The notes under the pieces were generated by a model, which saw only the letters and a program-made list of their open reading frames with translations, had not been told where the DNA came from and did not search any database. A program made the position numbers and the translations under genes. 64,000 nt of DNA from the IMG/VR virus record IMGVR_UViG_3300044856_000216, positions 127,916-191,915 of that record; one strand, given 5' to 3'. The DNA comes from a virus. How positions within the stretch are numbered: position 1 is the first letter of the stretch; each line of letters begins with the position of its first letter. This document shows, piece by piece, positions 676 to 63,300 of the stretch.

Positions 676-759
676 GGGTGGATATGCCTAGAGGCGAGGG
701 CAAGAGACTGTAAATCTCCCACATAAGAAACACCGTAGGTTCGACTCCTACTCCACCCA
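676..759 (+). tRNA. tRNA-Tyr (GTA), class II-like with an unpaired long variable region
   Basis: Acceptor GGGTGGA/TCCACCC. 3-bp D stem GCC/GGC. Anticodon loop CTGTAAA. T arm GTAGG-TTCGACT-CCTAC. Discriminator A. The 15-nt variable region has no obvious stem. Confidence 0.65.
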
Positions 760-950
760 CTATTGTCAGAAAGAGAAATCTTTCTTCTATTAAGAACATC
801 CATATAAGGAGCGTATGGCGGTGAGTTGACATCGTTAACAACTTGGGTGAACCTCAAGAGTGGTCAAGAGTGATAAAAACTCTTATAAAAGTGTAAGGCT
901 TTTGTATAATGGGCAAGCATTTAAAATCAATTACATAGTAAATAAATTAG

Positions 951-987
951 AGAAGCGATTTAGTCCACTACTATCTCGCTTCTTTTT
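951..987 (+). terminator. rho-independent terminator
   Basis: AGAAGCGA / TCGCTTCT 8-bp stem followed by TTTT. Confidence 0.6.
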
Positions 988-1011
988 GTATACGAAAGGA
1001 AGTGAGATTTA

Positions 1012-2046
1012 ATGAGTAGAAAAATACAACACAATAATATTGTTACTGATGAGTTATTGACTCAGTGTAATAAAGAGAATATAGAGTTAGGAAATGATTT
1101 TTTGGATTATCTTCGTTCAGTTGATAGATCCCCAAATACAATCAATGCGTATAGACGTGACCTTTACATTTTTTGGGTTTATCTACTTCAGCATTGTGAC
1201 AACAAATTTTTTATTGATTTATCTAAAAGAGACATTGCTCGTTATCAGAGTTTTTGTCTTACTGAATATAAATGGTCGCCAGCTAGAATGCGTAGAGTAA
1301 AATCTACTCTCTCATCGCTTTCAAATTATGTAGAAGCTATATTGGACGATGAGTATGAAAATTTTAAACCAATTATACGCAAAATTGAAAATCCTGCAAA
1401 TGAAAAGGTATTCACTAAAACTGTATTATCTGATGAGCAAGTACAGGGAATGCTTGATTATTGGGTTGAAAAAGGTAAATATGACAAGGCTTGTATTTTA
1501 GCATTAGCTGCATTTAGTGGCAGACGTAAGAGTGAGTTACCACGATTTAAAGTATCTTATTTCGATGATGAAAATATCATATACGGTTCTTTATATAAAA
1601 CACCTGAAAAGATCCAAACAAAAGGAAGAGGATCTCGCGGAAAAATGTTAGTGGCATATACACTTGCAAAACCATTTAAGCCATATTTCGATTTGTGGAT
1701 GAATTATAGAAAAGAACACGGAATTGAATCAGAATGGTTATTTCCCAAAAAAGTAAATGGAGAATATATAGATGAACCTATGGATTCAAGTACTCTTGAC
1801 AGTTGGGCTGATACATTTAGTAAGCATTTAGGAGAAGACTTCTATTTCCACAGTCTTCGTCACTTCTTTACAACTTCTTGTTCTCGAAGCGGTCTTCCTG
1901 ATGATGTAATTCAAATGTTAGTCGGTTGGAGTTCGCTAGATATGGTATCAGTGTACAAGGATATTGATGCAGATGAGCAATTTGCAAAATATTTTGCTGA
2001 TGGAGAAATAAAACAAGTAGAACAAAAATCACTTTCTGATTTGTAG
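1012..2046 (+). CDS. int: tyrosine recombinase / phage integrase (full length)
   Basis: Motifs seen: N-terminal core-binding segment NTINAYRRDLYIFWVYL; catalytic Arg in AAFSGRRKSEL; HSLRHFF (H-x-x-R); LVGWSSLDMVSVY (nucleophile Tyr). SD AAGGAAGTGAG lies upstream. Confidence 0.85.
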   Translation: MSRKIQHNNIVTDELLTQCNKENIELGNDFLDYLRSVDRSPNTINAYRRDLYIFWVYLLQHCDNKFFIDLSKRDIARYQSFCLTEYKWSPARMRRVKSTLSSLSNYVEAILDDEYENFKPIIRKIENPANEKVFTKTVLSDEQVQGMLDYWVEKGKYDKACILALAAFSGRRKSELPRFKVSYFDDENIIYGSLYKTPEKIQTKGRGSRGKMLVAYTLAKPFKPYFDLWMNYRKEHGIESEWLFPKKVNGEYIDEPMDSSTLDSWADTFSKHLGEDFYFHSLRHFFTTSCSRSGLPDDVIQMLVGWSSLDMVSVYKDIDADEQFAKYFADGEIKQVEQKSLSDL

Positions 2047-2361
2047 AAGATGCTGATAAAGCTTTTTGTTTAACACTTCGAATAAATACTATACTGTTAT
2101 CAGTATTTATAGGTATGCTTAATCCTAAGTTATGTAGCGAAAAAAGTGAAAGAAAGCACTTACAAATGAACAAAAATCGTTAGAGGTTTTTACTAGGGCG
2201 GTGCGTGCATTAAACTAGATTTGAGCTTTTGTAAAAAATATCAGATATTTTTTAAAGAAACAACAAGGAAGCATGAATGGATTGTCTAACTTTCTATTCT
2301 AAATAACTGGATGTGTACAGTCCAATATCAGCTAGTTAGTGCTTTATGCTGATTTTCTAAT

Positions 2362-2436
2362 GGATCGTTCGCCTAGTTGGTTATGGCACTACCCTGTCAC
2401 GGTAGAATAACATGGGTTCAAGTCCCATACGATTCG
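2362..2436 (+). tRNA. tRNA-Asp (GTC)
   Basis: Acceptor GGATCGT/ACGATTC. Anticodon arm CTACC-CTGTCAC-GGTAG. T arm ATGGG-TTCAAGT-CCCAT. Confidence 0.85.
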
Positions 2437-2440
2437 TTTT

Positions 2441-2511
2441 GGGGCATTAGTCAAAAGGTAAGACAACGGGTTTTCATCCCGTGAGTATCGGTTCGAGTCC
2501 GTTATGCCCTA
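2441..2511 (+). tRNA. tRNA-Glu (TTC)
   Basis: Acceptor GGGGCAT/ATGCCCT. Anticodon arm ACGGG-TTTTCAT-CCCGT. T loop TTCGAGT with one T-stem mismatch. Confidence 0.75.
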
Positions 2512-2575
2512 TTATAATTACCATTTAGGAATTTAACCTATATAAATAATTATTATATGTAGAGGAGCACATATT

Positions 2576-3337
2576 ATGGCATTAATTGATAAATATACAA
2601 ATGATGAATTCATAGATTTTGTAAAAAATTCTTTTTCTTATCGAGAATTAGCAAGAAAAATTGGATATAAATCTTATTCTGGTGATTTATCTCAAATATT
2701 AAAAAATAAAATTTTTGAATTGAATCTTTCTACAAATCATTTTGAAAGAGATAAAACAAAAGATATTACTAGAACTTTTGATAATATTTTTTGTAGTAAT
2801 TCAACGGCAGATCAGAAAACATTAAGAAAGTGGTATTTTGATGGACATTATACCCCTTATAGTTGTAAAATATGTGGTCAATTACCAGTTTGGAATGGAA
2901 AGGAATTAGTATTAACTCTTGATCATATAAACGGAAATAATCATGATGACAGATTGGAAAATTTAAGATGGGTATGTCCAAATTGTGATAGACAGTTAGA
3001 TACTTTTGGTGGGAAAAATATAAGTAAAAAAAATAATAAGAAATATTGTTTAGATTGTGGAATTGAAATTGGCAAAAAATCTACTTATTGTAAAAAATGT
3101 TCTCCTAAACATCGTAAAAATTTATACGAAGTAAAATTAAAAAAATCTGTGTTATATGAATCAGGTATCACTAGAGATAGATTAAAAGATTTGGTGCGCC
3201 AAAAATCTTTTGTAGATATTGGAAAAATATACGATGTATCAAATACTACAATAAAAGAATGGTGTAAAAAATTTAATTTACCATTTAGAAAAAAAGAAAT
3301 TGAATTATATACAGATAACGAATGGGAAAATATATAA
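2576..3337 (+). CDS. HNH homing endonuclease
   Basis: LDHINGNNHDDRLENLRWVCPNCDRQ is a beta-beta-alpha-Me HNH motif with CxxC pairs. The C-terminal tail (IGKIYDVSNTTIKEWCKKF) looks like a helix-turn-helix. The gene sits between tRNA genes. Confidence 0.85.
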   Translation: MALIDKYTNDEFIDFVKNSFSYRELARKIGYKSYSGDLSQILKNKIFELNLSTNHFERDKTKDITRTFDNIFCSNSTADQKTLRKWYFDGHYTPYSCKICGQLPVWNGKELVLTLDHINGNNHDDRLENLRWVCPNCDRQLDTFGGKNISKKNNKKYCLDCGIEIGKKSTYCKKCSPKHRKNLYEVKLKKSVLYESGITRDRLKDLVRQKSFVDIGKIYDVSNTTIKEWCKKFNLPFRKKEIELYTDNEWENI

Positions 3338-3560
3338 TTCAAGAACGAAATGCTGCGTTCAAGTCACGCCAGAGTCATTGTGCGGTAAACCTGATGTGAA
3401 AACCTATTTTTTGGATGCATACGAAATTTAGGTGTGTAAGCTCAACACTTGCTACCGCCCTATCAAATTATCCGTGGGCAACAACTACGCAGATTATTTT
3501 GATAAAGTCGTAATGAAAATAGTTTCATTTAGTTTAGAGAAAGATAATTTTTTAAGAAAA

Positions 3561-3589
3561 GAGTCATTTCCTTTGGAGATGGCTCTTTT
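3561..3589 (+). terminator. hairpin terminator upstream of tRNA-Trp
   Basis: GAGTCAT / ATGGCTC stem with one G-U pair, followed by TTTT. Confidence 0.5.
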
Positions 3590-3596
3590 GTTATAT

Positions 3597-3670
3597 ACGT
3601 CTTTAGTTTAATTGGTTAGAATATCAGACTCCAAATCTGAGAGATGTGGGTTCGACTCCTACAGGGCGTG
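3597..3670 (+). tRNA. tRNA-Trp (CCA)
   Basis: Acceptor ACGTCTT/AGGGCGT with two G-U pairs. Anticodon arm TCAGA-CTCCAAA-TCTGA. T arm GTGGG-TTCGACT-CCTAC. Confidence 0.8.
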
Positions 3671-3908
3671 TTTGTGTCAACTAAGATATATGCATATTCT
3701 TAGACTATACTGGTGTATAGGTGGCACTAAAACTGTGACGACAGTTGACTTGTTTATATGGTTCAAATCCATTCGCCTTATATATGAAAGAAATGAATGT
3801 GTAAATTTTAAGTATGATATAAGGTCAGGCGTTGGTATAAGCGAGGTTCAATTCCTCTACTCAAGTCTTGAATGTGTGAATTGCACTTTCATTGGAAAGG
3901 AGAATTGT

Positions 3909-25548: not shown

Positions 25549-28500
25549 ATGCCAGGAATGTATAAATATAGCATGGAGATTGAATCTAATGTCAAAAAGT
25601 TACTTTTGGACACAAAAGAACTCCAAGACAGAATGGATACTCTCGAAGGCAAAGAATATAAAATCAACTTAAATATTGATGAGAAAAAACTTGGAAATGT
25701 AATTTCCAATCTCGAAAAAATGCTTGACTCTCTTGGTAAGGGAACAGGTGATTTCAAACAGTTTGAGAATTTATCAAAGGAACTATCAAGTATTGTATCA
25801 GAAGTACAGAGTTTAAGTAAAGCTTTTGGTAAAGTAGATGATTCTGGTACGAAGACATTACTCTCTTCTATCCAAAATATTGATAAATCACTTTCTGAAC
25901 TGAGTCAGAATATTCTCAATGTTAATAAAAACATGAGTAATATGGGTGGCAATACGAGTGGTGCTGTCAAACAAGTGGAGAATATTAGTGATGCGTATCA
26001 AAACGCTGCAAAAGAAGCTGAGAAATTGGCTGATGCACAAAGTAAAATTGGACAGAAAACGAATATTTCATTAGGTGACTCTAAAGAGCAATCAACAGAA
26101 ATTGACTTATATCATAATTTAGAAAAGAGAAAAGTTACATATGATGAAATAATTGATAAAATTCAAACAATCATATCTCTTAAAGAAAAAGAAAAATCGT
26201 TAAGCAAAACTTCTGATGATACGAAACTCTACCAAAAATTATATGACGAAAATGATATCAATTGGGCTGGTGATACAGAAGGTACTATTAATAGAATATC
26301 AGATAGATTAAAAGAAATTTATATAAAATATAATGGTAAAATATCTTTAATTAATGAAAATGATATTCAAGAAGCCGCTTATCTGTTAGACATACTAAAA
26401 GGAGCAGGTGAATCACCTAATCTAAATAAATCTCAAGAAAAATTTTATCAGAATAAAAAATTTTCAAACGATTCATTGTTTGATAATATTCATGTTGATT
26501 CTCAAAAAACAGGAGAAATAGATAAAATCAACACAGAGTTGTCAGAAACATATCGTTGGTTTAATCAACTTGAGGGTGTATCTCTTAATGAAAATATAGC
26601 AAACGAAATTAAATCATTAATATCGGATATGCAAATTGGTGGAAAAAATGCTAATGAATATGCTAATGATTTATTAAAAATATTTAATATAGAAGTTGGC
26701 TCTAATTCTGTTGTCGAACAGCAAAATAAATTGCAATCTGAATTAAAAGAAACTGAATCACAGGCTGAAAAGACTACTATGGCTGTTAAAGAGGTATCTT
26801 CTACTGCTTCTACAGAGCAAAAGAAAGACGCATTTCCTTCTACCGAAGCTACTGCTTCTGTTGAGAAAACAACACAAGCAATTAGAGAAGAAAATAATGC
26901 TTTGGATGAAACAGTAAGTAAAGCCAAACAGGCGGCTTCTGAATCGACAAAAACTAGAGATATTGTTAGCCAGAATTGGTATCGTGAAAAAGGAACAGTT
27001 GTAGGCAAAGATTCAAAAGGCAACGATATAACTCGTGATGCTGATGAATTTTCTTTTGTGGAAAGATTAAAAAATGGTCAGTTACAAACAGTTCTGGCTA
27101 CATATGATGAGGAAACTGGCAAATGGGCAGAACAAGTTATTAATGTCAGAACTGCTTTTGAACAGGTAGAAAAAGCTATTATCAGTGCAGATAATAAGAT
27201 TGCTTCTTTAGAGATAGCAAAAGAAAGGACTCTTGCATCTCATCCAGGGTACGATGCTACTGCTGATGATAATCAGATTGCCATTGAAAGAAAAAAGAGA
27301 GATGAATTACAAGCAACTCTTAATCTTTATGGCAGCGAAAAGGAATATGTTTTTGAGATTGAAGCTGCTACAAAGAGAATTGCTGATAATCAGAAAAGAC
27401 TGAATAATAAGAAACAGTCACAGACTAATTTAAGACAAGCAGTTTCTGATGAAAAGGATGCAAAAGCCAACGAACAAGCAAATAAACGTGACGCAAAACA
27501 GGCACAAATTGAGGCAGAGAATATTAAATTAGCAGAACAGAAATCTATTTACAATGAGTTGATTGATTCTATTGATAGATATTCTACAGTTTCAAAACGA
27601 ATTGAAAGTGGCAAGGCTTTTGAGGGTGACTACGAAGAAGCTGCAAGATTGCAAGAAAAGATTGAAGAACTTCAAAACAATCCTATTTTATCACAAGAAC
27701 AGTTGGATGCTTCTCAGCGTAAGTTGGAGAAAATTGAAACTACATTAGAAGATATTGCAACTGCAAAAGCAAAAAGTGACTCTATTAAAGTTGATTCTGA
27801 AAATGTCAAAAATATTCAAGCTGAATGGGATAAAAATATAAAAGCAATCCAAGATTATATGGATGCTATGACAAAACTCAATAATCTTAAAGCTAAGGAT
27901 AAAGGTACTGGTAGTGAAGCAAATCAGATTGCGTTACAGACACAGAATGTTGAGGAATTAAAACAGGCTGCATGGGATGCACGAAAGAATTTGTCTTCTA
28001 TACAAGCAGAAAATCCTGATATCATCGCATGGAAACAATGGGTTGATATGATGGAACTATTCGATCAAGCTTCTAAAGGTTCTGCTGAATCAGCCGCAAA
28101 ACTCAAAGATGTATTAGACAACATAAAAGCTCCATCTCTTGATAAATATGAGAATAAACTAGCATCTTACCAGACTAAGAAAGGTGCTTATAATGCTACT
28201 ATCGCAAGGTTTAACGATGGTGGTTGGACAAGTGATGAATATTTAAAGAATGTACAGGCTGTCAAGGATGCTGTTAATGAGTATGAAACTCTGCTTAATG
28301 AATTAAAGGGCAAAGATGCTAGTTTGGTGACAAGTGATGATATTTCTAAATTGGACGAGTATGAAAAGAAAATCAAAGATGCTATCGCTACTGTCACTAA
28401 TATGTCAGCTGCTGAAAAGGGATATAACTTTGTTTCAGGTCAGAAAGAATTAGACAAGATTCACAAGCTTCTCAATGAAAATAGTAAGATGTCTTCTGAG

Positions 28501-29892
28501 GCAAAAGCTAAAATCAAGGCTTACTATACGGAAATTGAAAGTGGTAATCCTAGCATGAGTTTGGATAGAATTCATGGTGAGATTATGAAGATTTACAATG
28601 CTGAAGTTGAAGCTGGTCGTGCTGGCAGAAGTTTCTTTGATACATTAAAGAATAGTGGATTTCATCAATTAGCTGCTCAGATGTCAGGTATGTTTGGATT
28701 TTATGATGTTATTAATATTGGGAAACAAGCGATTAGTACAATTGTAAGTCTTGACGATGCTTTAGTTGATTTAAAGAAAACTACGGCAATGAACAAAACT
28801 CAGCTTGAGCAATACTATTATGACGCTAATGATGTTGCGAAACAGATGGGTGTAACTACAGAAGAGATTATTAACCAAAGTTCCGCTTGGTCTAGGCTTG
28901 GATACAATACTGCTGAAGCTTCTACGGAAATGGCAAAACTTAGTTCTCAGTTTGCTTCTATTTCTCCTGGAATGGGAGTTGATGAAGCTCAGAGCGGATT
29001 AGTCTCAATCATGAAAGCATGGTCAATAGATCCAGATCAAGTAAAGTCTGAAATTATGGACCCTATAAATCAGCTTGGAAACACAATGGCTGAAGACAAC
29101 CAAGATATTGTAGAGGGTATGGAACGTTCTGCCGCTGCACTTGCTGCTGTTGGTACTTCTACAAAAGATGCTTTTGCTTTATTTTCAGGTATACAAGAAG
29201 TTTTGCAAAATGCAGAAAAAAGTGGTACTTCCCTCAAGAGCGTTGCCTTACGACTGCGATCTTTTGACGAAACGACAGGAGAATATTCTGAGGATTTAGC
29301 AAATATCACAGGCGAATTAATAGATTTAACTAAAACTGCTGAACATGCAGAAGGAGTTTCTATTTTCAAACCTGGTTCAACTACAGAGTTCAAAGATTTA
29401 ACTGATTATTTCAGAGAGATTGCAGGTATCTGGGATGAGATGACACAGAAGCAGCAAAATGATTTTCTTATCAAGGCTTTTGGTCGTAATCAAGCTCAAG
29501 CAGGTGCTGCTCTTATTCAGAACTTTAAAGCTGTTGATAAAGCTCTCGCTGAAATGGGTGAAAGTGCTGGCAGCTCGGATAAAGAAATGGAAGCTGTAGA
29601 ATCCTCTCTTTCTTATAAAATCAACGCACTTAAGGAAACTTGGGTTGGCTGTGTGCAAGATATGATAGACAGAGGAGACTTAGGTACAATTGTAACTGGT
29701 CTTACAAAAGTCTCAGAAGCTATTACTTTCTTACTTGATAAATTGGGTATTCTTGGCTCTATTGGATTAGGAGCAGGAATATTCTCAGGAATTAAAAATG
29801 TCGGTGGGAATAAAATGCATTTCCCGATGAATATACTCGACAACATACATAATTTACTTTGGATACAAAGGTTTAGAGTATGTTATCCGTGA
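25549..29892 (+). CDS. tail tape measure protein, N-terminal part (TP901-type core domain)
   Basis: Long coiled coils are followed by the core VSLDDALVDLKKTTAMNKTQLEQYYYDANDVAKQMGVTTEEIINQSSAWSRLGYN...GLVSIMKAW. Then comes the hydrophobic Gly-rich segment LGILGSIGLGAGIFSGIKNVGG, which ends at nt 29808. 27 unrelated residues follow before the stop. Confidence 0.85.
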   Translation: MPGMYKYSMEIESNVKKLLLDTKELQDRMDTLEGKEYKINLNIDEKKLGNVISNLEKMLDSLGKGTGDFKQFENLSKELSSIVSEVQSLSKAFGKVDDSGTKTLLSSIQNIDKSLSELSQNILNVNKNMSNMGGNTSGAVKQVENISDAYQNAAKEAEKLADAQSKIGQKTNISLGDSKEQSTEIDLYHNLEKRKVTYDEIIDKIQTIISLKEKEKSLSKTSDDTKLYQKLYDENDINWAGDTEGTINRISDRLKEIYIKYNGKISLINENDIQEAAYLLDILKGAGESPNLNKSQEKFYQNKKFSNDSLFDNIHVDSQKTGEIDKINTELSETYRWFNQLEGVSLNENIANEIKSLISDMQIGGKNANEYANDLLKIFNIEVGSNSVVEQQNKLQSELKETESQAEKTTMAVKEVSSTASTEQKKDAFPSTEATASVEKTTQAIREENNALDETVSKAKQAASESTKTRDIVSQNWYREKGTVVGKDSKGNDITRDADEFSFVERLKNGQLQTVLATYDEETGKWAEQVINVRTAFEQVEKAIISADNKIASLEIAKERTLASHPGYDATADDNQIAIERKKRDELQATLNLYGSEKEYVFEIEAATKRIADNQKRLNNKKQSQTNLRQAVSDEKDAKANEQANKRDAKQAQIEAENIKLAEQKSIYNELIDSIDRYSTVSKRIESGKAFEGDYEEAARLQEKIEELQNNPILSQEQLDASQRKLEKIETTLEDIATAKAKSDSIKVDSENVKNIQAEWDKNIKAIQDYMDAMTKLNNLKAKDKGTGSEANQIALQTQNVEELKQAAWDARKNLSSIQAENPDIIAWKQWVDMMELFDQASKGSAESAAKLKDVLDNIKAPSLDKYENKLASYQTKKGAYNATIARFNDGGWTSDEYLKNVQAVKDAVNEYETLLNELKGKDASLVTSDDISKLDEYEKKIKDAIATVTNMSAAEKGYNFVSGQKELDKIHKLLNENSKMSSEAKAKIKAYYTEIESGNPSMSLDRIHGEIMKIYNAEVEAGRAGRSFFDTLKNSGFHQLAAQMSGMFGFYDVINIGKQAISTIVSLDDALVDLKKTTAMNKTQLEQYYYDANDVAKQMGVTTEEIINQSSAWSRLGYNTAEASTEMAKLSSQFASISPGMGVDEAQSGLVSIMKAWSIDPDQVKSEIMDPINQLGNTMAEDNQDIVEGMERSAAALAAVGTSTKDAFALFSGIQEVLQNAEKSGTSLKSVALRLRSFDETTGEYSEDLANITGELIDLTKTAEHAEGVSIFKPGSTTEFKDLTDYFREIAGIWDEMTQKQQNDFLIKAFGRNQAQAGAALIQNFKAVDKALAEMGESAGSSDKEMEAVESSLSYKINALKETWVGCVQDMIDRGDLGTIVTGLTKVSEAITFLLDKLGILGSIGLGAGIFSGIKNVGGNKMHFPMNILDNIHNLLWIQRFRVCYP

Positions 29893-30350
29893 GATACACG
29901 GTGATAAACACCCTATAACGTCTGAATAGACTTGTATGCCATAAACATACAACTGGGAATTACGTCAAACTCACACTACTCTCCTATTTTGGTAACAAAT
30001 TAGGCTATAGTGACAATGTGTGAACTCGTATGGTCAGGTCGGAAGCTTCCTTATTATAAGGAATAACCGCCACAGTAATGCTATGGGTGAGATTCAGTAT
30101 ATGAAATGATACTGATGAGAATAGACATTCGATGCTATTATGGAGCGTAGCCATAAAATTATGAGTTAGGAACTTATCTCCTACTTCTACGTTAAGTTTG
30201 AACCAATTGTTCCTTGGTAGATAAGATGGAACAAAAAGAAGTAAATCTCGATTTCTTTCGAGGTAAAAACAGAGAATAATAAAATAGAGAGCAGATTACT
30301 CTACTCTCTTATATATGAAAATGATATAATATTCCCACCAGATTTTCTAA

Positions 30351-30431
30351 CTACGCACAAAGCTTAATGACAATAATTAATGCCACTATTGCTATGATAA
30401 AACTTGTACTAACCTTTATCTTACACTTCAT
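30351..30431 (-). CDS. 26-aa hydrophobic peptide (type I toxin-like)
   Basis: MKCKIKVSTSFIIAIVALIIVIKLCA. GGAAGGAGA lies 8 nt upstream of the ATG. A hairpin (AGAGAG/CTCTCT plus T-rich tail) lies downstream on the minus strand. Confidence 0.5.
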   Translation of the reverse strand: MKCKIKVSTSFIIAIVALIIVIKLCA

Positions 30432-30588
30432 GGTAATTGTCTCCTTCCTATGTTAATAAATCCTATTGGGATTTGCATTGAAAGGCGTAATGCTCAAGCT
30501 AGTGCCCGATACAACGACCTATGTAGTTATACTTATCTGGCTCTCCAACACTTATCTTTTGAATAAGTTTTCCACATGGAGAATAATA

Positions 30589-30622
30589 AAATGAGGACTG
30601 TCGTGATGACCAGCCCTCATTT
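30589..30622 (-). terminator. hairpin terminator for the minus-strand small gene
   Basis: AAATGAGG / CCTCATTT 8-bp stem, followed on the minus strand by TTTATTATT. Confidence 0.55.
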
Positions 30623-30667
30623 AAGGAATAAAAGGAAATAAATTATGACTTATACAAAAGAATAAAA

Positions 30668-30847
30668 TTATTTAGATTGATGTTTGTCTTTTGCAATCAT
30701 GTGAGTTATGTATTTTACTTTCTCATTACTGAGTTCAGGATGTTTGCAAATCAGTATTGTGACTACTAATTTGAGAATCAAATATCCAAAGTAACATACT
30801 CCTACACTGCCTAAGACTTTCAATAATTGTGTTAGACCTACTAACAA
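30668..30847 (-). CDS. 59-aa small membrane protein (TTG start)
   Basis: AGGGAGGG lies 5 nt before the TTG. Sequence LVGLTQLLKVLGSVGVCYFGYLILKLVVTILIC followed by a charged tail. One residue below the ORF-track length cut-off. Confidence 0.45.
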   Translation of the reverse strand: MLVGLTQLLKVLGSVGVCYFGYLILKLVVTILICKHPELSNEKVKYITHMIAKDKHQSK

Positions 30848-31094
30848 TTCTACCCTCCCTTCTGTAGAAATTTCATAACATTAGGGAAATCGTATTGCCC
30901 AGAACGGGCTGAATTTATTTCCAAAATAGTGTTTGATTCTACGCAAACACTCCCACATGGTAACTAAAGAAAAGTACCAAGCACTTGCCGTGACGATGGA
31001 CTGCAATGTGGTCATACAGTCGTAGTATGCTTGGTGCTATTATACCATGTAGTATTTTTGATTAACAGATAGAACATTTTGTCGATTTTTGGAA

Positions 31095-31163
31095 CACAAA
31101 AATAGAATATTTTGTGAAATTGAGTTCACATCTATTTACAAAATTTAGTATCTGTGTTATCTT
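31095..31163 (+). promoter_or_regulatory. promoter with an upstream inverted repeat, in front of the DUF262 gene
   Basis: Inverted repeat CACAAAAATA-gaa-TATTTTGTG (31095-31116). Direct repeats ATAGAAYATTTTGT. -35 TTTACA (31135-31140), 17-nt spacer, TGtTATCTT (31155-31163). Confidence 0.4.
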
Positions 31164-31204
31164 CAAAATAGTAAAAATTTTCAATTTTTGAAGGAGGTAA
31201 CACG

Positions 31205-32203
31205 ATGAAAAATTCTAGTAAAGAAAGAACTCTACAGTGGATAAATACTCAGAATAAAAAGGGTAATATATCCTTTGAACACCGTTTACAGCGTCCGACT
31301 GGGCAGTGGAATAATCGCATGAAAAGTCTATTGATTCATAGTTTATTAAGTGGTATTCCAGTTAATCCAATTTATGTTGTAGAGGAAGAAAATGTAATCT
31401 ATCCGTTAGATGGCTCTCAGAGAACATCAACTTGTATTGATTATATTAATGATGTATTTTCATTAAGCAAAGATACTCCAAATATATCTATTGCTGTAAA
31501 AGAAAATGGAGAACAAACAATTAAGGAATATGAAATTGCAGGAAAGAAATTTAAAAAGCTTGATAACGAGGTGAAAGAAACCCTTCTTGCTTGTACCTTA
31601 GAATTCTGCACACTGTCTGATTATACAGATGAGGAAGTAAAAATCATGTTCGCTCGTCAGAATTCAGGAAAACCTTTGAATGGTAAATTGCTTCGTGTGG
31701 TTCATGAATCAGATGAGTTCAGCGAAATGGTCTACTCTCTCGCTAATCATCCATTTATGGATAAAATCATGTCAAAGACACAGCGTAAGAATGGAACAGA
31801 CAGAGATACAATTATTCAAGCTATGATGCTTATCTCTTCTAATCAAGAACAGGAATTTACATCTTTTAGAACAAAAGATATTGATACCTATGTAACTGAT
31901 TATGCAGATCAGTATCTTGATAGAGCTGATACTTTAAAAGAGGCTATGGATAGATTTAATGAAGCATTTGATGGTGAAATAAAAATTCCATCCACAAGTA
32001 TCCCACAAATTTTATATAGTGGTTATAGAATCGTTAAAGATAAGAAGTCATTCTCTCGTCTCGTAGAAAAGGTGTCTGAATTTATTGCAACTTATGATTC
32101 TAATGAGGAATATAAACAGTATGTTCAGAGTGGTACAGGCAGCAAAGAAAATGTCAAAGGACGTTTTGATTATTGGCGTGGAATTGTAAAGACATTGCAG
32201 TAA
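31205..32203 (+). CDS. DUF262 (ParB/GmrSD N-terminal domain-like) protein without a DUF1524 nuclease domain
   Basis: HRLQRPTGQWNNRMKSLLIHSLLSGIPVNPIYV...YPLDGSQRTSTCIDYI and MFARQNSGKPLNGKLL match the DUF262 signature (QR..W, DGQQR-like). AAGGAGG SD. Confidence 0.65.
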   Translation: MKNSSKERTLQWINTQNKKGNISFEHRLQRPTGQWNNRMKSLLIHSLLSGIPVNPIYVVEEENVIYPLDGSQRTSTCIDYINDVFSLSKDTPNISIAVKENGEQTIKEYEIAGKKFKKLDNEVKETLLACTLEFCTLSDYTDEEVKIMFARQNSGKPLNGKLLRVVHESDEFSEMVYSLANHPFMDKIMSKTQRKNGTDRDTIIQAMMLISSNQEQEFTSFRTKDIDTYVTDYADQYLDRADTLKEAMDRFNEAFDGEIKIPSTSIPQILYSGYRIVKDKKSFSRLVEKVSEFIATYDSNEEYKQYVQSGTGSKENVKGRFDYWRGIVKTLQ

Positions 32204-32214
32204 AAAAAAGATAA

Positions 32215-32240
32215 AGAGTAGTCGGTGGCTACTCTTCTTT
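32215..32240 (+). terminator. rho-independent terminator
   Basis: AGAGTAG / CTACTCT stem followed by TCTTTC. Confidence 0.6.
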
Positions 32241-32341
32241 CATGTTCGTTTATAAACATACGTTCTGAATAGTATTATGCAATATCTTGTCGTATAATAT
32301 TTGGTATAAATTATCAAAAATATACGAGAGGAGAATTAGAA

Positions 32342-33037
32342 ATGGTAAAATATGTTTATTGTGGATTATATGATATTGATCTTCATGGCGAAACATATGC
32401 AGAATTTGATGGTGAACATCCAACGATGATAGTTCAAACTAAAAAAGAACCTAAAATGTACATTGTAATACCATTTACTTCATACGAACCGAACAGGTGG
32501 AAGAAGTTAAAGAAAAAGATGTGTTGTAGAGTTGAATCAACTAATTCTATTGCAAGAATTGATAGGATTAAAATTATTAACGATTCAGATATTACCAAAA
32601 GATGGATTGATATTGAAAAGAAAAGTTTACTTGTACCGAGCAAAGAAGATGTTGAAAAAGTGTTAAAGAAGTCTTTAGCATATATAGAAGCGTCCTTTAA
32701 TCAATCCTATTCATTTTATTTAGATTATTTAAAAGAGCGTGAAGTTTTGGAAGATAATATTAAAAAGACATTTATAGATTTTGATTTTAATAATTCTATA
32801 TTTACGTTTGATTTTACAGAAGATAATGTTACAAAAATATCTTTTCCAATGGGTTATGTAAAATCTATGGCAATGATAGATATACAAGATTTCTTTAATA
32901 ATATATTTAATAGAAGGAAATTCACTGTTAAAATTATAGATTCCAAAAAACTAATTGTTGTTTCTGTTAAAAATAGTGATAAAAAAATGTTGACAATCAA
33001 AGAGAAGTATGATAGTATAATCTCAACAGAAGGGTAG
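32342..33037 (+). CDS. MazF/PemK-like toxin domain fused to a ~115-aa unknown C-terminal domain
   Basis: The N-terminus aligns by eye with EndoA/MazF. GLYDIDLHGETYAEFDGEHPTMIVQT corresponds to GDVYFADL..GSEQGGVRPVLVIQ. YIVIPFTS is the T-S strand. ARIDRIKIINDSDI corresponds to EQIRTIDKQRL. GAGAGGAGAA SD. Confidence 0.5.
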   Translation: MVKYVYCGLYDIDLHGETYAEFDGEHPTMIVQTKKEPKMYIVIPFTSYEPNRWKKLKKKMCCRVESTNSIARIDRIKIINDSDITKRWIDIEKKSLLVPSKEDVEKVLKKSLAYIEASFNQSYSFYLDYLKEREVLEDNIKKTFIDFDFNNSIFTFDFTEDNVTKISFPMGYVKSMAMIDIQDFFNNIFNRRKFTVKIIDSKKLIVVSVKNSDKKMLTIKEKYDSIISTEG

Positions 33038-33205
33038 CTTTACTATATGGGTATAAATCCAACTGTTATTTTTGTATACCACAGCATTGAGAGCATTCTT
33101 TATGATGTAAGGCTAAGTGCATTTGATGTATAATTTTTATTTGATTTACATATAGTATAATAGCGTAAAGGGTATCGAAAGTGTAAATCCAAACGCATTG
33201 AGATT

Positions 33206-33236
33206 AAAAAGCATCTGCTAACGCAGGTGCTTTTTA
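33206..33236. terminator. bidirectional hairpin terminator
   Basis: AGCATCTGC-taac-GCAGGTGCT stem flanked by AAAAA and TTTTT. Confidence 0.6.
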
Positions 33237-33358
33237 TATTATAATAAACAACAATAAAGAGCAAATGTATTCACACTTGCTCTGCTCTTCTATCCTAATT
33301 CATCTTGGCATAGTCGAAACATATATTTAGACGGTTCTCTTTTTCAATACAAACAAAA

Positions 33359-33385
33359 AGAGTAGTAATTTCTCACTACTCTTCT
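33359..33385 (+). terminator. hairpin carrying the ACTACTCT motif
   Basis: AGAGTAGT / ACTACTCT 8-bp stem followed by TCTATCCC. Confidence 0.45.
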
Positions 33386-33416
33386 ATCCCATTTAAAAAT
33401 CAGAGCCGCAGTTATT

Positions 33417-33626
33417 GTGGATTTAAAAGGATCTAATGATATACTTTCAGAGTTGGCGCAAAGTCTATATTTTAAATATAAAGAACAACTATCAGTATTA
33501 CAATGGAAAAATATTATGAGGGAGGTTGTTGATATAACTTCAAAATATGATAATACAATAGATACAAATATAAATTTTGAAGTTATTCGAAAAATAGAAA
33601 ATAATGGGAATATATTTTACAAATGA
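33417..33626 (+). CDS. doubtful small ORF (possible gene remnant)
   Basis: GTG start without an SD. A 56-aa ORF in another frame overlaps its end (33604-33774), which suggests a frameshifted remnant. Confidence 0.2.
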   Translation: MDLKGSNDILSELAQSLYFKYKEQLSVLQWKNIMREVVDITSKYDNTIDTNINFEVIRKIENNGNIFYK

Positions 33627-33812
33627 TTATTTTGATATCTCTAATATAATAGAGAGAATAAAAGATGAATTGTTTTTAAATAGGTATCCAATATTCAAAT
33701 TAGATTTAGATTTAATTAGAAGTAGGAATTTTAAGACAGGTATTTCACCTGTCTTATTTAATTGGGAAAAATAAGTAGATAATAATTCATACACATATTT
33801 ATAATAATAAAG

Positions 33813-33842
33813 AAAAAAGACTCATCTTTTGACAAGTCTTTT
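33813..33842. terminator. bidirectional terminator downstream of the repressor gene
   Basis: AAAAAGACT / AGTCTTTTT stem with A and T tracts on both sides. Confidence 0.55.
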
Positions 33843-33886
33843 ACTACTCTATTATTATTTAGAAAGGTCGTGAAATTATGCCATGA

Positions 33887-33976
33887 ATGAAAGGTATTTA
33901 TAGATTTAATCCTGCTTTGGTTGGAGTAATTATAGGATTGATTATTGATTTAATCTTATGCGTAGTACTTCCCTAA
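33887..33976 (+). CDS. 29-aa hydrophobic peptide candidate
   Basis: MKGIYRFNPALVGVIIGLIIDLILCVVLP. Weak or no SD. Convergent with the repressor gene. Confidence 0.25.
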   Translation: MKGIYRFNPALVGVIIGLIIDLILCVVLP

Positions 33977-34006
33977 TAAAAACTCTACAAAATACTTATG
34001 ACAATA

Positions 34007-34612
34007 TTATAATATGATCTTTACAATCTTCCCAATAATTCTATAATTATTGTCATAAATATATCTATCTTCATGTGAAAATTCTCTATTTAAGGATTTA
34101 AACCATATATGGTCAGATTGTTGATTGTATTGTTTACATATTACGTCTCCGTTTATTTCAGCAATGACATTTTGACCATCTAACTCATATGGATCGAATT
34201 TTGTATCTAGTAAAACAACGCTATCGTCTGGAATTGTGTCTTCCATGCTTTTTCCTTTTATATGAATACCAAAAACAGCATTGTCAGGAATATAATCGGT
34301 AATAATATCTTCTATTTCAAAATCTCCATCTCTACCTATCATGCCTGCACCTGCGGCTGCTTGTTGATCGTATACTGGAAATCTATAGATATTCTGTATA
34401 TTCATAGATTTTATGTTTGTCCTATCTAGTAAATAATCAACAGAACAATTAAAGTAAGAAGCAATTTTACAAAGTGCTTCTGCATTAGGGGTGGACTTTT
34501 TACTAGGGTTTAACCAATCTGATATATTTCCAGTAGAAATATTTGTAGCTTTTGAAAGTCTTGCGCTTTCTCCTCTTTTATTTAATAGACTTTTTAAATG
34601 AATAAGTTCCAT
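34007..34612 (-). CDS. CI/LexA-like repressor (XRE HTH plus S24 peptidase domain)
   Basis: N-terminal HTH ESARLSKATNISTGNISDW. C-terminal GKSMEDTIPDDSVVLLD (Ser nucleophile) and VICKQY (Lys). Confidence 0.8.
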   Translation of the reverse strand: MELIHLKSLLNKRGESARLSKATNISTGNISDWLNPSKKSTPNAEALCKIASYFNCSVDYLLDRTNIKSMNIQNIYRFPVYDQQAAAGAGMIGRDGDFEIEDIITDYIPDNAVFGIHIKGKSMEDTIPDDSVVLLDTKFDPYELDGQNVIAEINGDVICKQYNQQSDHIWFKSLNREFSHEDRYIYDNNYRIIGKIVKIIL

Positions 34613-34668
34613 ATAATTACCTCTCTTCTACATAATTTACCATATTTTTCCAATATAATAAAGCTATA

Positions 34669-34728
34669 TTGACATTTTCGTGTATGCGAGTTATTATATT
34701 AACACTCGTTTATGCGAGATTTTATATT
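34669..34728 (+). promoter_or_regulatory. rightward sigma-A-type promoter overlapped by two direct operator-like repeats
   Basis: TTGACA (34669-34674), 17-nt spacer, TATTAT (34692-34697). Repeats CGTGTATGCGAGTTATTATATT (34679-34700) and CGTTTATGCGAGATTTTATATT (34707-34728) match at 19 of 22 positions. Confidence 0.6.
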
Positions 34729-34791
34729 GCAAACATAAGTTCTCGTTGTCGAGAATGGTTCAATTTGGTAAAATGAAAGGAGATTTTTGTT

Positions 34792-63143: not shown

Positions 63144-63300
63144 ACGATTTTTCCTCTTCTATTATTTGATATTCAGATTCATTAATGATAACTTTGTATC
63201 CATCTAATATTCTTTGAATCTGTTCTTGAGAAGCGATACTATGCAGGCAATTCCAAAAATGTCTCTCATGTTGTCGGATATTATTGATTAAGTATATCAT
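63142..63300 (-). CDS. 52-aa ORF translationally coupled to the integrase
   Basis: ATGA overlap with the integrase stop codon. Below the ORF-track length cut-off. Function unknown. Confidence 0.35.
   Translation of the reverse strand: MIYLINNIRQHERHFWNCLHSIASQEQIQRILDGYKVIINESEYQIIEEEKS

What the first reader, a model, noticed from the sequence alone, without database searches (positions are those of the whole stretch)
31205..33037. A stand-alone DUF262 protein lies next to a MazF-like domain fused to an unknown C-terminal half
ORF 31205-32203 has the DUF262 / GmrSD N-domain signature (LQRPTGQW, LDGSQRTST, FARQNSGKPL). It lacks the DUF1524 HNH nuclease domain that normally completes type IV restriction enzymes.

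After a terminator and a short spacer comes ORF 32342-33037. Its first ~115 aa align by eye to EndoA/MazF at all the landmark strands: G-x-Y-x-x-D-L, E-x-x-G-x-HP-x-M-I-V-Q, IPFTS and RIDRIKIIND. The usual Arg-Pro is His-Pro here.

No MazE-type antitoxin gene is visible upstream or downstream. Instead the protein carries a further ~115 aa of unknown sequence. That extension could be a fused antitoxin, a sensor, or a replacement effector domain.

Both genes are typical defence-island content, but neither is in a canonical arrangement. They sit inside a phage structural operon.
Basis: partly seen in the sequence, partly recalled or inferred. Interest (0 to 1): 0.7.

Follow-up and report, generated by a model that had tools for sequence, protein, structure and literature searches.

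The report
MazF-like toxin with downstream RNA repeats
The two phage genes are independent cassettes, and the MazF-like gene is always followed by a previously undescribed small RNA gene made of 2-3 structured repeats, which is probably its missing antitoxin.

Summary
ORF1 (31205-32203) is a stand-alone ParB/DUF262 protein of the NsnA type. It has no nuclease domain and no Menshen partner genes. ORF2 (32342-33037) has a true PemK/MazF-fold N-domain, with an invariant His26 where MazF has its catalytic Arg. It also has a conserved C-terminal alpha/beta domain with no recognisable relative.

The two genes are not a system. They are separate transcription units with separate recombination boundaries, and each occurs widely without the other.

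Every ORF2 homologue with enough 3' flank (34 of 34 loci, protein identity down to 28%) is followed on the same strand by 2-3 copies of a ~40-nt RNA hairpin. The hairpin has strong covariation: 95% of cells pair, against 32-40% in slid controls. A sigma-70-type promoter tracks the first unit, and a terminator follows the array. In the window, this promoter and unit 1 are overprinted on the last 15 codons of ORF2. No Rfam family matches, and no protein partner is conserved.

My best reading is a type III-like toxin-antitoxin module with the RNA antitoxin downstream of the toxin (confidence about 0.55). It is carried as a moron between the tape measure gene and the next tail gene.

The parts
31131..31204 (+). 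Conserved promoter/leader region of the DUF262 cassette
   Evidence: blastn homology to L009-L014 starts at 31131-31133. L019 shares only 31135-31218, in front of a divergent allele. A promoter-like site lies at 31135-31163.
31205..32203 (+). ORF1: stand-alone ParB/DUF262 + helical C-domain protein (NsnA/DndB-like), 332 aa
   Evidence: Pfam GmrSD_N at 5.1e-11. PADLOC NsnA at 1.1e-31 over profile positions 48-381 of 385. phrog_2598 at 9.6e-36. More than 1179 homologues, all about 330 aa.
32214..32236 (+). Intrinsic terminator that ends the DUF262 cassette (bidirectional hairpin)
   Evidence: It is included in the homology block with L012.
32254..32341 (+). Conserved 5' region of the MazF-like cassette. 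It holds a TATAAT box at 32293-32298 and a GAGAGGAG ribosome-binding site.
   Evidence: Homology to L001-L004 and L019 starts at 32254. Alignment A5. Calling this a promoter is an inference.
32342..32686 (+). ORF2 N-domain (aa 1-115): PemK/MazF-fold endoribonuclease-like domain. Y10, H26, T46, S69 and I70 are invariant.
   Evidence: Pfam via homologues; structure; invariant residues; His26 aligned to EndoA Arg25.
32642..32980 (+). ORF2 long helix (aa 101-145) and C-terminal alpha/beta domain (aa ~150-213), fold unassigned
   Evidence: AF2 secondary structure with pLDDT above 90. No significant PDB match when this half dominates the model. Conserved in family members of about 200-250 aa.
32990..33018 (+). 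Sigma-70-type promoter of the sRNA (TTGACA-17-TAGTAT with an upstream TG), inside ORF2 codons 217-226
   Evidence: An equivalent promoter ends 3-4 nt before the unit 1 hit in 11 of 18 mapped loci, whatever the position of the stop codon.
33026..33066 (+). RNA unit 1 (P1 ACAG/CUGU). It overlaps codons T229-E230-G231 and the stop codon.
   Evidence: Covariance-model (CM) hit at 33022-33070, 39.1 bits, E 8.7e-9. Alignments A7 and A8.
33084..33120 (+). RNA unit 2, a divergent copy (P1 GCAU/GUGC; UGAGAG replaces AAGGG, with a compensating GCU)
   Evidence: Weak CM hit at 33085-33124, 11 bits. Homologous units occur in L001, L005, L032, L037 and L038. The inner pair changes from G-C to A-U.
33151..33156 (+). 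Conserved CATATAGTA box. It is a candidate -10 element for separate transcription of unit 3.
   Evidence: Conserved in A4 and in L022, L037 and L038. The equivalent TTCATA-17-TATAAT promoter follows an extra terminator in L042, L050 and L051. This is an inference for the window.
33163..33196 (+). RNA unit 3 (P1 GCGU/ACGC)
   Evidence: CM hit at 33159-33200, 27.8 bits, E 2.1e-5. This unit was not in the seed alignment.
33205..33236 (+). Intrinsic terminator of the sRNA / ORF2 transcript
   Evidence: Inverted repeat I9. MFE hairpin. The stem keeps pairing through compensatory changes in L001, L005 and L032.

Best explanation
**Two unrelated cassettes.** The locus holds two unrelated moron cassettes in a hypervariable island (29893-37657). 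The island lies between the tape measure gene and the next tail gene of a large phage of gut Clostridia.

**Cassette 1 (31131-32236).** It encodes a stand-alone ParB/DUF262 NTPase-like DNA-binding protein. This gene is the conserved leading gene of the island.

**Cassette 2 (32254-33242).** It is a self-contained protein-RNA toxin-antitoxin module.
- The toxin is a PemK/MazF-fold endoribonuclease-like protein. It has His26 and Thr46 at the positions of the catalytic Arg and Thr of MazF, and it carries an extra C-terminal alpha/beta domain.
- The proposed antitoxin is a small RNA transcribed from its own strong promoter, which lies within the last codons of the toxin gene.
- The RNA consists of 2-3 non-identical copies of a ~40-nt unit. 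Each unit has a closing stem P1, an internal loop with conserved AAG and AG, a short GG/CC helix, a variable (often GNRA-capped) hairpin P2, and a conserved single-stranded GUAAA/G.

**Proposed mechanism (inferred).** Each unit binds the toxin. The long helix and/or the C-terminal domain probably help in this, as the helices of ToxN and CptN do. Binding occludes the RNase groove, as in type III systems. When transcription collapses, for example on superinfection or loss of the element, the labile RNA decays and the freed RNase arrests the cell.

**Shown:**
- the fold;
- the conserved residues;
- the structure and covariation of the RNA;
- the strict co-occurrence and orientation of gene and RNA;
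- the promoter and terminator anatomy;
- the absence of any conserved protein partner.

**Inferred:** RNase activity, toxicity, RNA-protein binding and neutralisation.
For: **Protein.**
- 30 of 40 family members hit PemK_toxin, up to 28.7 bits against a gathering score of 23.1, over profile positions 3-108 of 109.
- The model has pLDDT 92.9.
- The top Foldseek hit is the type III toxin CptN (4rmo_A), followed by MazF and Kid.
- Y10, H26, T46, S69 and I70 are invariant. His26 aligns with EndoA Arg25.

**RNA structure.**
- The 3' region is more conserved than the coding sequence, and a 1-nt indel rules out a small ORF there.
- Repeated units are seen in homologues with 28-41% protein identity.
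- In the given structure 94.7% of cells pair, against 32-40% in slid controls. Eight of nine pairs show compensatory changes. The covariation score is 0.561 against 0.20 in shuffles, with 0 of 500 shuffles reaching it. The values are the same on 85 CM-aligned hits.
- RNAalifold and single-sequence MFE folding both recover P1 and the inner helix independently.

**Specificity.**
- In the 64-kb window, with filters off and both strands searched, the only significant hits are at 33022-33070 and 33159-33200.
- All 85 hits in the loci are on the gene strand, and 84 of them lie at the 3' end of the gene (displaced by an IS element in L023). None occurs in the loci that have only the DUF262 gene.
- 34 of 34 loci with enough flank have at least 2 units.
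- In a motif-first scan of 185,579 genomes, every array of 2 or more units (7 of 7) lay next to the gene or a remnant of it.
- 80 loci that matched the loop pattern by chance scored at most 24.6 bits.

**Transcription anatomy.** A TTGACA-17-TAnnnT promoter tracks unit 1 from -59 to +10 relative to the stop codon. Terminators follow the arrays.

**Partners and precedents.**
- No protein neighbour is conserved: the best cluster is in 4 of 24 loci and is a tape measure protein.
- Precedents are type III systems (PMC5086642) and AbiF with RCd22, an RNA carrying two motif copies (PMC12373285).
Against: - No experiment or expression data support toxicity, RNase activity or RNA binding.
- The catalytic Arg is replaced by His in every member, so the chemistry may differ or be absent.
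- The arrangement differs from all described type III systems. The RNA is downstream, has its own promoter, and its units are non-identical and irregularly spaced rather than exact tandem repeats. No pseudoknot is evident.
- Unit 2 of the window scores at noise level (11 bits).
- The conserved C-terminal domain could itself be the regulator, with the RNA serving another role.
- I derived the structure by eye from these same sequences. This inflates the comparison with slid controls, though not the counts of compensatory changes.
- The register of the inner 2-bp helix is ambiguous.
Confidence: 0.55

Rival explanations
1. The RNA units are cis-acting autoregulatory sites, and the C-terminal domain is the real safety catch. 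The MazF-like protein binds or cleaves its own 3' UTR, including unit 1 across its stop codon, to limit its own synthesis. The fused C-terminal domain acts as an intramolecular inhibitor or sensor, that is, a single-chain toxin-antitoxin.
For: - Unit 1 overlaps the stop codon or the end of the coding sequence in 14 of 18 mapped loci. ORF2 mRNA that reads through therefore carries the units.
- The two-domain architecture is conserved across about 60 cluster representatives.
- The model's pTM of 0.78 suggests a fixed arrangement of the two domains.
- No protein antitoxin is present.
Against: - A dedicated consensus promoter sits directly in front of unit 1. In L020, L021, L044 and L059 it lies after the stop codon. 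A second promoter with its own terminator surrounds unit 3 in several lineages. Both point to an RNA made independently of the mRNA and in excess of it.
- Arrays persist next to decayed or IS-disrupted toxin genes, as orphan antitoxins do.
- I could not check whether the C-terminal domain contacts the RNase groove, because the tools return no coordinates.
Confidence: 0.2
2. The protein is not a toxin. It is a dedicated processing or chaperone enzyme for the repeat RNA, as Cas6 is for crRNA. The processed sRNA units would then be the functional effector, for example as regulators or decoys acting on host or competing-phage factors.
For: - Protein and RNA co-occur strictly.
- The units have different P1 stems but identical loops, like the handles of a processed array.
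- The Arg-to-His change could reflect a specialised, non-toxic nuclease.
- Type III toxins also process their RNA.
Against: - No variable 'spacer-like' payload is evident. The only variable parts are stems that covary.
- The module behaves like a selfish or mobile moron in many unrelated contexts.
- Toxin-less arrays and IS-disrupted genes fit decay of a toxin-antitoxin module.
- The family falls within PemK_toxin by HMM.
Confidence: 0.12
3. One reading: the DUF262 protein (sensor) and the MazF-like fusion (effector) form a two-gene defence system.
For: - The genes are adjacent in the window. In L019 the ORF2 cassette again follows a DUF262 gene, though one only 40% identical.
- DUF262 proteins act as sensors in GmrSD, SspE and Menshen, where the effectors are often RNases (PMC12065111).
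Against: - A terminator and a separate promoter lie between the genes.
- The homology blocks are distinct.
- ORF1 homologues in L009-L014 are followed by unrelated cargo.
- ORF2 homologues in L001-L008, L020-L061 and L184-L194 lack a DUF262 neighbour.
- NsnB and NsnC are absent.
Confidence: 0.05

Closest known systems
Type III toxin-antitoxin systems (ToxIN, CptIN, TenpIN; AbiQ-antiQ)
   Same: - The toxin has a Kid/MazF-like fold, and the top Foldseek hit is CptN (4rmo).
- A repeated non-coding RNA is encoded next to the toxin on the same strand.
- Promoter and terminator logic would give an excess of RNA over toxin.
- Both are carried by phages and mobile elements in Bacillota.
   Different: - The RNA lies downstream of the toxin, and partly inside its last codons, with its own promoter. 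Described systems have it upstream under a shared promoter with an intervening terminator.
- The 2-3 units are non-identical and irregularly spaced. They are not exact tandem repeats; TRF finds none.
- Each unit is a stem/internal-loop/hairpin with no evident pseudoknot.
- By sequence the toxin belongs to PemK_toxin. It does not belong to ToxN, CptN or TenpN.
- The toxin carries an extra C-terminal domain of about 115 aa.
Type II MazF/PemK/Kid (EndoA) toxins with MazE/PemI antitoxins
   Same: - Family members match Pfam PF02452.
- The SH3-like barrel superposes on B. subtilis, S. aureus, E. coli and M. tuberculosis MazF and on Kid.
- The landmark motifs G-x-Y-x-x-D-L, G-x-[HR]-P-x-[LIV]-[IV], [IV]-P-[FL]-T and S-I-A-R-I-D are collinear with EndoA.
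   Different: - There is no protein antitoxin gene.
- The catalytic Arg is replaced by an invariant His.
- A long helix and an alpha/beta domain are added.
- The gene is associated with a structured repeat RNA.
AbiF (Abi_2) with the RCd22 RNA of a C. difficile prophage
   Same: A phage-borne toxic protein of Clostridia is neutralised by an adjacent ncRNA that carries two copies of a conserved structured motif. The RNA acts in cis and in trans by direct protein binding, 'similar to type III' (PMC12373285).
   Different: - The toxin fold is different (Abi_2 / Cas13-related, not MazF).
- The RNA motif is different (the abiF motif).
- There, RCd22 also down-regulates abiF expression (a negative regulator); here the RNA lies 3' of the gene.
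NsnA of Menshen / DndB / the N-terminal part of GmrSD (for ORF1)
   Same: ORF1 has a ParB-DUF262 domain with the QRxxxW, DGxQR and FxxxN motifs, followed by a helical 'ParBDB'-type C-domain. It matches the NsnA profile over its full length.
   Different: - There is no NsnB ABC ATPase and no NsnC effector nearby.
- There is no DUF1524 HNH domain.
- There are no dnd genes.
- It is a single-gene cassette at a fixed position behind the tape measure gene in one phage clade.

Membership tests
PemK/MazF toxin family (Pfam PF02452) | Significant match to the family HMM | tested here: inconclusive
   The window protein gets no hit, even at E <= 1. Among its homologues, 30 of 40 hit the family. Six of the ten members scanned individually score above the 23.1-bit gathering score, over profile positions 3-108 of 109. 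Membership therefore rests on transitive homology.
PemK/MazF toxin family (Pfam PF02452) | MazF/Kid/CcdB SH3-like barrel fold | tested here: met
   The AF2 model has pLDDT 92.9. Foldseek against PDB gives more than 45 MazF/Kid chains at probability 1.00, with target-normalised TM-scores of 0.55-0.74. BFVD hits are PemK-like phage proteins.
PemK/MazF toxin family (Pfam PF02452) | Catalytic Arg and Thr/Ser of the RNase site (EndoA R25 and T48; the role of these residues is from my own knowledge of the EndoA-RNA structure) | tested here: inconclusive
   hhalign puts the invariant His26 on Arg25. By strand register, the invariant Thr46 falls on Thr48. Activity cannot be tested here.
PemK/MazF toxin family (Pfam PF02452) | Adjacent MazE/PemI-type protein antitoxin gene | tested here: not met
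   No protein neighbour is conserved among 24 loci. The 138-nt gap upstream in the window holds a terminator and a promoter only.
Type III toxin-antitoxin systems | Endoribonuclease toxin with a ToxN/CptN/Kid-like fold | tested here: met
   The fold is met: the top PDB hit is CptN 4rmo_A (E 1.5e-4, 138 columns). Enzymatic activity cannot be tested with these tools.
Type III toxin-antitoxin systems | Repetitive non-coding RNA gene next to the toxin gene | tested here: met
   There are 2-3 structured units per locus in 34 of 34 loci. Covariation is documented. The units are not exact tandem repeats.
Type III toxin-antitoxin systems | Antitoxin repeats upstream of the toxin, one promoter, terminator between them (PMC5086642) | tested here: not met
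   The array is downstream of the coding sequence or overlaps its end, and it has its own promoter. Nothing repetitive lies upstream.
Type III toxin-antitoxin systems | Toxin belongs to the ToxN, CptN or TenpN sequence family | tested here: not met
   ORF2 gets no PADLOC or Pfam hit of that kind. The only Pfam family that recurs among members is PemK_toxin.
Type III toxin-antitoxin systems | The toxin processes the RNA, and pseudoknotted units inhibit the toxin in a closed RNP | not testable with these tools
   This needs biochemistry or a structure of the complex. The covariation supports a nested stem/internal-loop/hairpin with no evident pseudoknot.
GmrSD-type type IV restriction enzymes | N-terminal DUF262 (PF03235) | tested here: met
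   E 5.1e-11, above the gathering score.
GmrSD-type type IV restriction enzymes | C-terminal DUF1524 HNH nuclease (PF07510) | tested here: not met
   ORF1 gets no such hit at E <= 1. Its C-terminal half matches the helical NsnA-C region.
Menshen (NsnABC) | NsnA: ParB-DUF262 plus ParBDB | tested here: met
   PADLOC NsnA at 1.1e-31 over nearly the whole profile.
Menshen (NsnABC) | Adjacent NsnB ABC ATPase (DUF3696) and NsnC effector | tested here: not met
   No NsnB or NsnC hit in the neighbouring ORFs of the window or in the cargo of related islands. PMC12065111 states that NsnA-like genes followed by NsnB define the system.

The most novel reading that the evidence does not exclude
This would be the founding example of a new protein-RNA toxin-antitoxin family that links type II and type III systems. 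A toxin that is a PemK/MazF homologue by sequence, extended by an RNA-binding helix and an alpha/beta domain, is neutralised by a 3'-encoded sRNA. The sRNA has 2-3 non-identical structured repeats and its own promoter. That promoter and the first repeat are overprinted on the toxin's C-terminal codons, and this overlap is what fixes the conserved ...LTxKxxYDK..TEG tail.
Probability: 0.5. Interest if true: 0.8.

Novelty: new variant of a known kind. Interest (0 to 1): 0.72.

Why it matters
[quoted passage not shown] A toxin that still scores as PemK by HMM, yet is tied to a repeat RNA and not to MazE, would be a plausible intermediate. It would also extend type III-like logic to a new gene order.
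- **A new structured RNA.** The finding adds an RNA motif from gut Clostridia and their phages that is not in Rfam. The motif has strong covariation and a clear protein partner, so it is ready for biochemical work.
- **A caution for annotation.** 'Orphan' MazF-like genes in phages and defence islands should be checked for flanking RNA genes before a fused or missing antitoxin is invoked.
- **A case of dual coding.** A promoter and a structured RNA are embedded in the last 15 codons of a protein gene.
- **A recombination hotspot.** The slot between the tape measure gene and the next tail gene in this phage clade emerges as a cassette-exchange hotspot led by a DUF262 gene.

Tried and rejected
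1. **Direct HMM and sequence searches of ORF2.** Pfam, PADLOC, NCBIfam, PHROGs and PDB gave nothing. Only homologue-by-homologue scanning and a deep-alignment structure model resolved the fold.
2. **AF2 with the shallow 17-sequence alignment.** The N-domain came out at pLDDT 30-45. I reused that model to look for relatives of the C-domain and found none.
3. **Tape measure gene interrupted by an intron or mobile element.** Rejected. The tape measure protein aligns to the end of its L001 homologue, and Rfam finds no intron.
4. **Canonical type III repeats upstream of ORF2.** None found.
5. **A small antitoxin ORF at 33048.** Rejected. A 1-nt indel in a conserved stretch breaks the reading frame in L002, L004 and L005.
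6. **The 320-aa protein upstream of ORF2 homologues in L001-L004, or the 312-326-aa protein in L042, L050 and L051, as DUF262 relatives.** They are not.
7. **The 231-aa minus-strand ORF in L009 as an ORF2 homologue.** It is not.
8. **Menshen membership.** Rejected. NsnB and NsnC are absent.
9. **Loose motif scan of genomes.** The 17-base pattern was swamped by chance matches. I used those matches as a negative control and replaced the pattern with a 21-base one.
10. **The Rfam 'pemK RNA motif' or any other Rfam family as the identity of the units.** No match at E <= 1 in the window or in 8 loci. I could not read the pemK motif's published description because its supplement is not held.
11. **The search for related loci with the broad alignment.** It failed twice because the alignment had no conserved stretch.
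Full report
**1. Observation**

The window is AT-rich phage DNA of about 30% GC. It has four tRNA genes and a long run of plus-strand structural genes. It is identical over the ORF2 gene to IMG/VR contigs of 182-186 kb.

ORF 25549-29892 is the tape measure protein. It aligns to the last residues of a 1727-aa PhageMin_Tail homologue, so it is complete and not interrupted. The next large tail gene starts at 37658. Between them lies an island (29893-37657) that contains the two ORFs of the finding.

*ORF1 (31205-32203).*
- It matches Pfam GmrSD_N/DUF262 above threshold (E 5.1e-11, aa 27-159).
- It matches the PADLOC NsnA profile almost end to end (E 1.1e-31).
- It matches phrog_2598.
- The QRxxxW, DGxQR and FxxxN motifs described for ParB-DUF262 (PMC12065111) are present.
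- There is no DUF1524 domain, and no NsnB or NsnC gene is nearby.

*Between the ORFs.* A hairpin terminator (32214-32236) follows ORF1.

*ORF2 (32342-33037, 231 aa).* On its own it hits nothing in Pfam, PADLOC, NCBIfam, PHROGs or PDB sequences.

**2. What ORF2 is**

The family is small. There are 32 clusters at 90% identity and 60 representatives among 1.84 billion proteins. Nearly all members are 200-250 aa with the same two-part layout.

Scanning members one by one shows that 30 of 40 hit PF02452 PemK_toxin. Several are above the gathering score and span the whole profile.

With a 51-sequence alignment, AlphaFold2 gives pLDDT 92.9 and pTM 0.78. Foldseek returns the type III toxin CptN (4rmo_A) first. 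It then returns B. subtilis YdcE/EndoA, S. aureus, M. tuberculosis and E. coli MazF, and Kid, all at probability 1.00. Viral hits are 'PemK-like' proteins.

Y10, H26, T46, S69 and I70 are invariant in the family. hhalign places GEHPTMIVQ on GVRPVLVIQ of EndoA, so His26 aligns with Arg25 (I checked my typed EndoA sequence against PDB). In the next strand, YIVIPFT lines up with AIVAAIT, which puts Thr46 on Thr48. That these are the catalytic residues of EndoA is from my own knowledge.

Residues 101-145 form one long helix. Residues ~150-213 form a beta-beta-alpha-beta-beta unit. I found no significant structural relative for this part.

**3. The two genes are not a pair**

*ORF1 homologues.* There are more than 1179, and all are stand-alone proteins of about 330 aa. 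In related phages (L009-L014) they sit at the same place, about 1.1 kb after the tape measure gene. They are followed there by quite different small genes before the next tail gene.

*ORF2 homologues.* They occur in three kinds of setting:
- In related phages they lie behind an unrelated 320-aa protein (L001-L004).
- In Clostridia chromosomes they stand alone between DedA-like and DUF4190 genes (L005-L008).
- In many other contexts.

*Partners and boundaries.* Clustering all neighbouring ORFs of 24 loci finds no shared partner. blastn places the homology blocks at 31131-32236 for ORF1 and 32254-33242 for ORF2, on either side of the terminator.

*The one exception.* Only L019, a related viral contig, again has a DUF262 gene upstream. 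That allele is 40% identical and sits under the same promoter sequence.

*Reading.* The DUF262 gene is the conserved, fast-evolving leading gene of a cassette hotspot. ORF2 is exchangeable cargo.

**4. The missed partner: a repeat RNA**

*First sign.* The ~200 nt after the ORF2 stop codon are more conserved than the coding sequence in every context. A 1-nt indel excludes a small ORF there. The region ends in a hairpin whose stem changes by compensatory substitutions.

*The unit.* In homologues with only 28-41% protein identity, the same region carries 2-3 copies of a unit:

stem - AAGGG - variable hairpin - (G/A)UAA(A/G)NCCAG - stem'

The outer stem covaries freely: CAG/CUG, UAG/CUA, UGG/CCA, GCGU/ACGC, UAAG/CUUA. 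The variable hairpin is often closed by a GNRA loop.

*Covariation counts.* On a 36-unit alignment with a 9-pair structure:
- 94.7% of cells pair, against 32-40% when the partners are slid.
- 8 of 9 pairs show double-sided changes, in 77 cells.
- The covariation score is 0.561, against 0.20 in shuffles (0 of 500 shuffles reach it).

The same holds for 85 model-aligned hits. RNAalifold and single-sequence folding recover P1 and the inner GG/CC helix independently, although the register of that 2-bp helix is ambiguous. A G-to-A change in AAGGG is always matched by a C-to-U change in CCAG.

*Caveat.* I derived the structure from these sequences, and the units within a locus are related to one another. 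The controls are therefore indicative and do not give probabilities.

**5. Specificity**

*Within the window.* A covariance model of the unit, run with filters off over both strands of the 64-kb window, finds only two significant hits. One is 33022-33070 (39.1 bits). The other is 33159-33200 (27.8 bits), which was not in the seed alignment. The degenerate middle unit scores at noise level.

*Across the fetched loci.* Over 47 loci, all 85 hits are on the gene strand, and all but one low-scoring partial hit (L032, E 0.029) lie at the 3' end of the gene.
- All 34 loci with sufficient flank have at least 2 units.
- The loci that have only the DUF262 gene have none.
- In L023 an IS30-like element has been inserted between the gene and its array.

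*Negative control.* Eighty loci that match the loop sequences by chance score at most 24.6 bits.

*Motif-first scan.* A scan of one genome per species returned 11 loci, all Bacillota:
- four with an intact family gene directly upstream;
- three arrays next to gene remnants;
- three single orphan units;
- one chance hit.

*Rfam.* No Rfam 15 family matches at E <= 1, in the window or in eight other loci. That library includes the 'pemK RNA motif', which is a different RNA.

**6. Transcription anatomy**

A promoter with a perfect or near-perfect TTGACA and a 17-nt spacer ends 3-4 nt before the unit 1 hit in 11 of 18 mapped loci. It follows unit 1, not the stop codon: its position ranges from -59 to +10 relative to the stop.

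In the window it is 32990-33018 (TTGACA-17-TAGTAT with an upstream TG). It lies inside ORF2:
- TTG ACA encodes L217-T218.
- ACA GAA GGG, the 5' half of unit 1, encodes T229-E230-G231.

This explains the oddly conserved C-terminal tail ...LTxKxxYDK..TEG. Homologues without that tail have the promoter just after the stop codon (L020, L021, L044, L059).

A terminator follows the array almost everywhere. In several lineages a terminator follows unit 2, then a second promoter, unit 3 and another terminator. The RNA therefore has the anatomy of an independent, strongly expressed gene.

**7. Mechanism**

The best-supported reading is a type III-like toxin-antitoxin module. It pairs a MazF-fold RNase with a repeat RNA that binds it. 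The known precedents are ToxIN, CptIN and TenpIN (PMC5086642) and AbiF with RCd22 (PMC12373285).

It fails two defining features of described type III systems: the upstream tandem array under one promoter, and toxin membership in the ToxN, CptN or TenpN sequence families. I therefore file it as working like type III, not as a member.

Toxicity, RNase activity and RNA binding are inferred, not shown.

*Rivals.*
- The RNA units are cis autoregulatory sites, and the C-terminal domain is the real inhibitor.
- The protein is a dedicated processing enzyme for an effector RNA.
- The DUF262-MazF two-gene model, which the distribution data largely exclude.

**8. ORF1**

ORF1 is an NsnA/DndB-like ParB-DUF262 protein without partners. 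It belongs to a very common phage family of unknown function (phrog_2598). It is not a GmrSD enzyme and not a Menshen system. Its role, whether as a DNA or modification sensor, in exclusion, or in counter-defence, remains open.

**9. Verdict**

- The real interest lies in the RNA array at 33026-33236 and its strict link to a PemK-homologous two-domain protein.
- Novelty: a new variant of a known kind.

Noticed in passing
window 29893-31204: A 1.3-kb ORF-poor stretch after the tape measure gene carries small hydrophobic minus-strand ORFs. One is 30354-30431(-), 26 aa (MKCKIKVSTSFIIAIVALIIVIKLCA), behind a strong GGAAGGAG ribosome-binding site; it looks like a type I toxin. Another is 30668-30847(-), a 59-aa membrane protein with a weak homologue at the same position in L009. 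Minus-strand terminators lie at 30309-30286 and 30262-30247.
   Followed up: partly
window 34007-37002: A CI/LexA-like repressor (HTH + Peptidase_S24) at 34007-34612(-) is divergent from a 736-aa protein of unknown function at 34792-37002(+). That protein has a C-terminal hydrophobic stretch, and its only database matches are weak ones to coiled-coil-type families. The intergenic region holds a 28-nt repeat (2.2 copies, 34665-34729) that overlaps a TTGACA promoter and probably acts as operators. This looks like a repressor-controlled, possibly SOS-inducible, module inside the tail operon.
   Followed up: partly
window 32981-33037: Dual coding: the last ~15 codons of ORF2 (LTIKEKYDSIISTEG*) are overprinted by the sRNA promoter (TTGACA = Leu-Thr) and the 5' half of RNA unit 1 (ACAGAAGGG = Thr-Glu-Gly). 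Homologues that lack this tail have the promoter after the stop codon.
   Followed up: yes
window 31131-31218; L019 4503-4586: The DUF262 gene that leads the island exists as divergent alleles (40% identity in L019) behind the same conserved promoter/leader sequence. This suggests allele replacement at a fixed expression site.
   Followed up: partly
window 37029-37589 (-): A 186-aa zinc-ribbon-like protein on the minus strand sits at the right edge of the island. Minus-strand ORFs of similar size (158-176 aa) occupy the same position in L001-L004; their relatedness to the window protein was not tested.
   Followed up: no
L023 6857-8158 (-); L186 5462-5855; L185 4326-4503: These loci show decay of the module. 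In L023 an IS30-like transposase is inserted between the MazF-like gene and its RNA array. In Aquibacillus (L186) and a Lachnospiraceae MAG (L185) only C-terminal remnants of the gene remain beside intact arrays. Single orphan units occur in L190, L191 and L193.
   Followed up: partly
window 33205-33317 (-): A sub-threshold Rfam match to the Bacteroides sRNA BTnc231 (37.5 bits against a gathering score of 80.4). It overlaps the bidirectional terminator region and is probably not meaningful.
   Followed up: no
window 32285-32332: An inverted repeat TCGTATA...TATACGA spans the -10-like box and the ribosome-binding site of ORF2. It is conserved in L001-L004 and L019 but not in L005. It could be an operator or a 5'-UTR hairpin that sequesters the ribosome-binding site.
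   Followed up: no
window 676-3671; 63297-63989 (-): Four tRNA genes (Tyr, Asp, Glu, Trp) lie at the left end of the window. A 230-aa tyrosine-recombinase (Phage_integrase) ORF lies at the right end.
   Followed up: no
L039 343-414: A RAGATH-18 RNA (63.3 bits; an RNA associated with IS607 TnpB) lies about 2 kb upstream of one MazF-like module.
   Followed up: no
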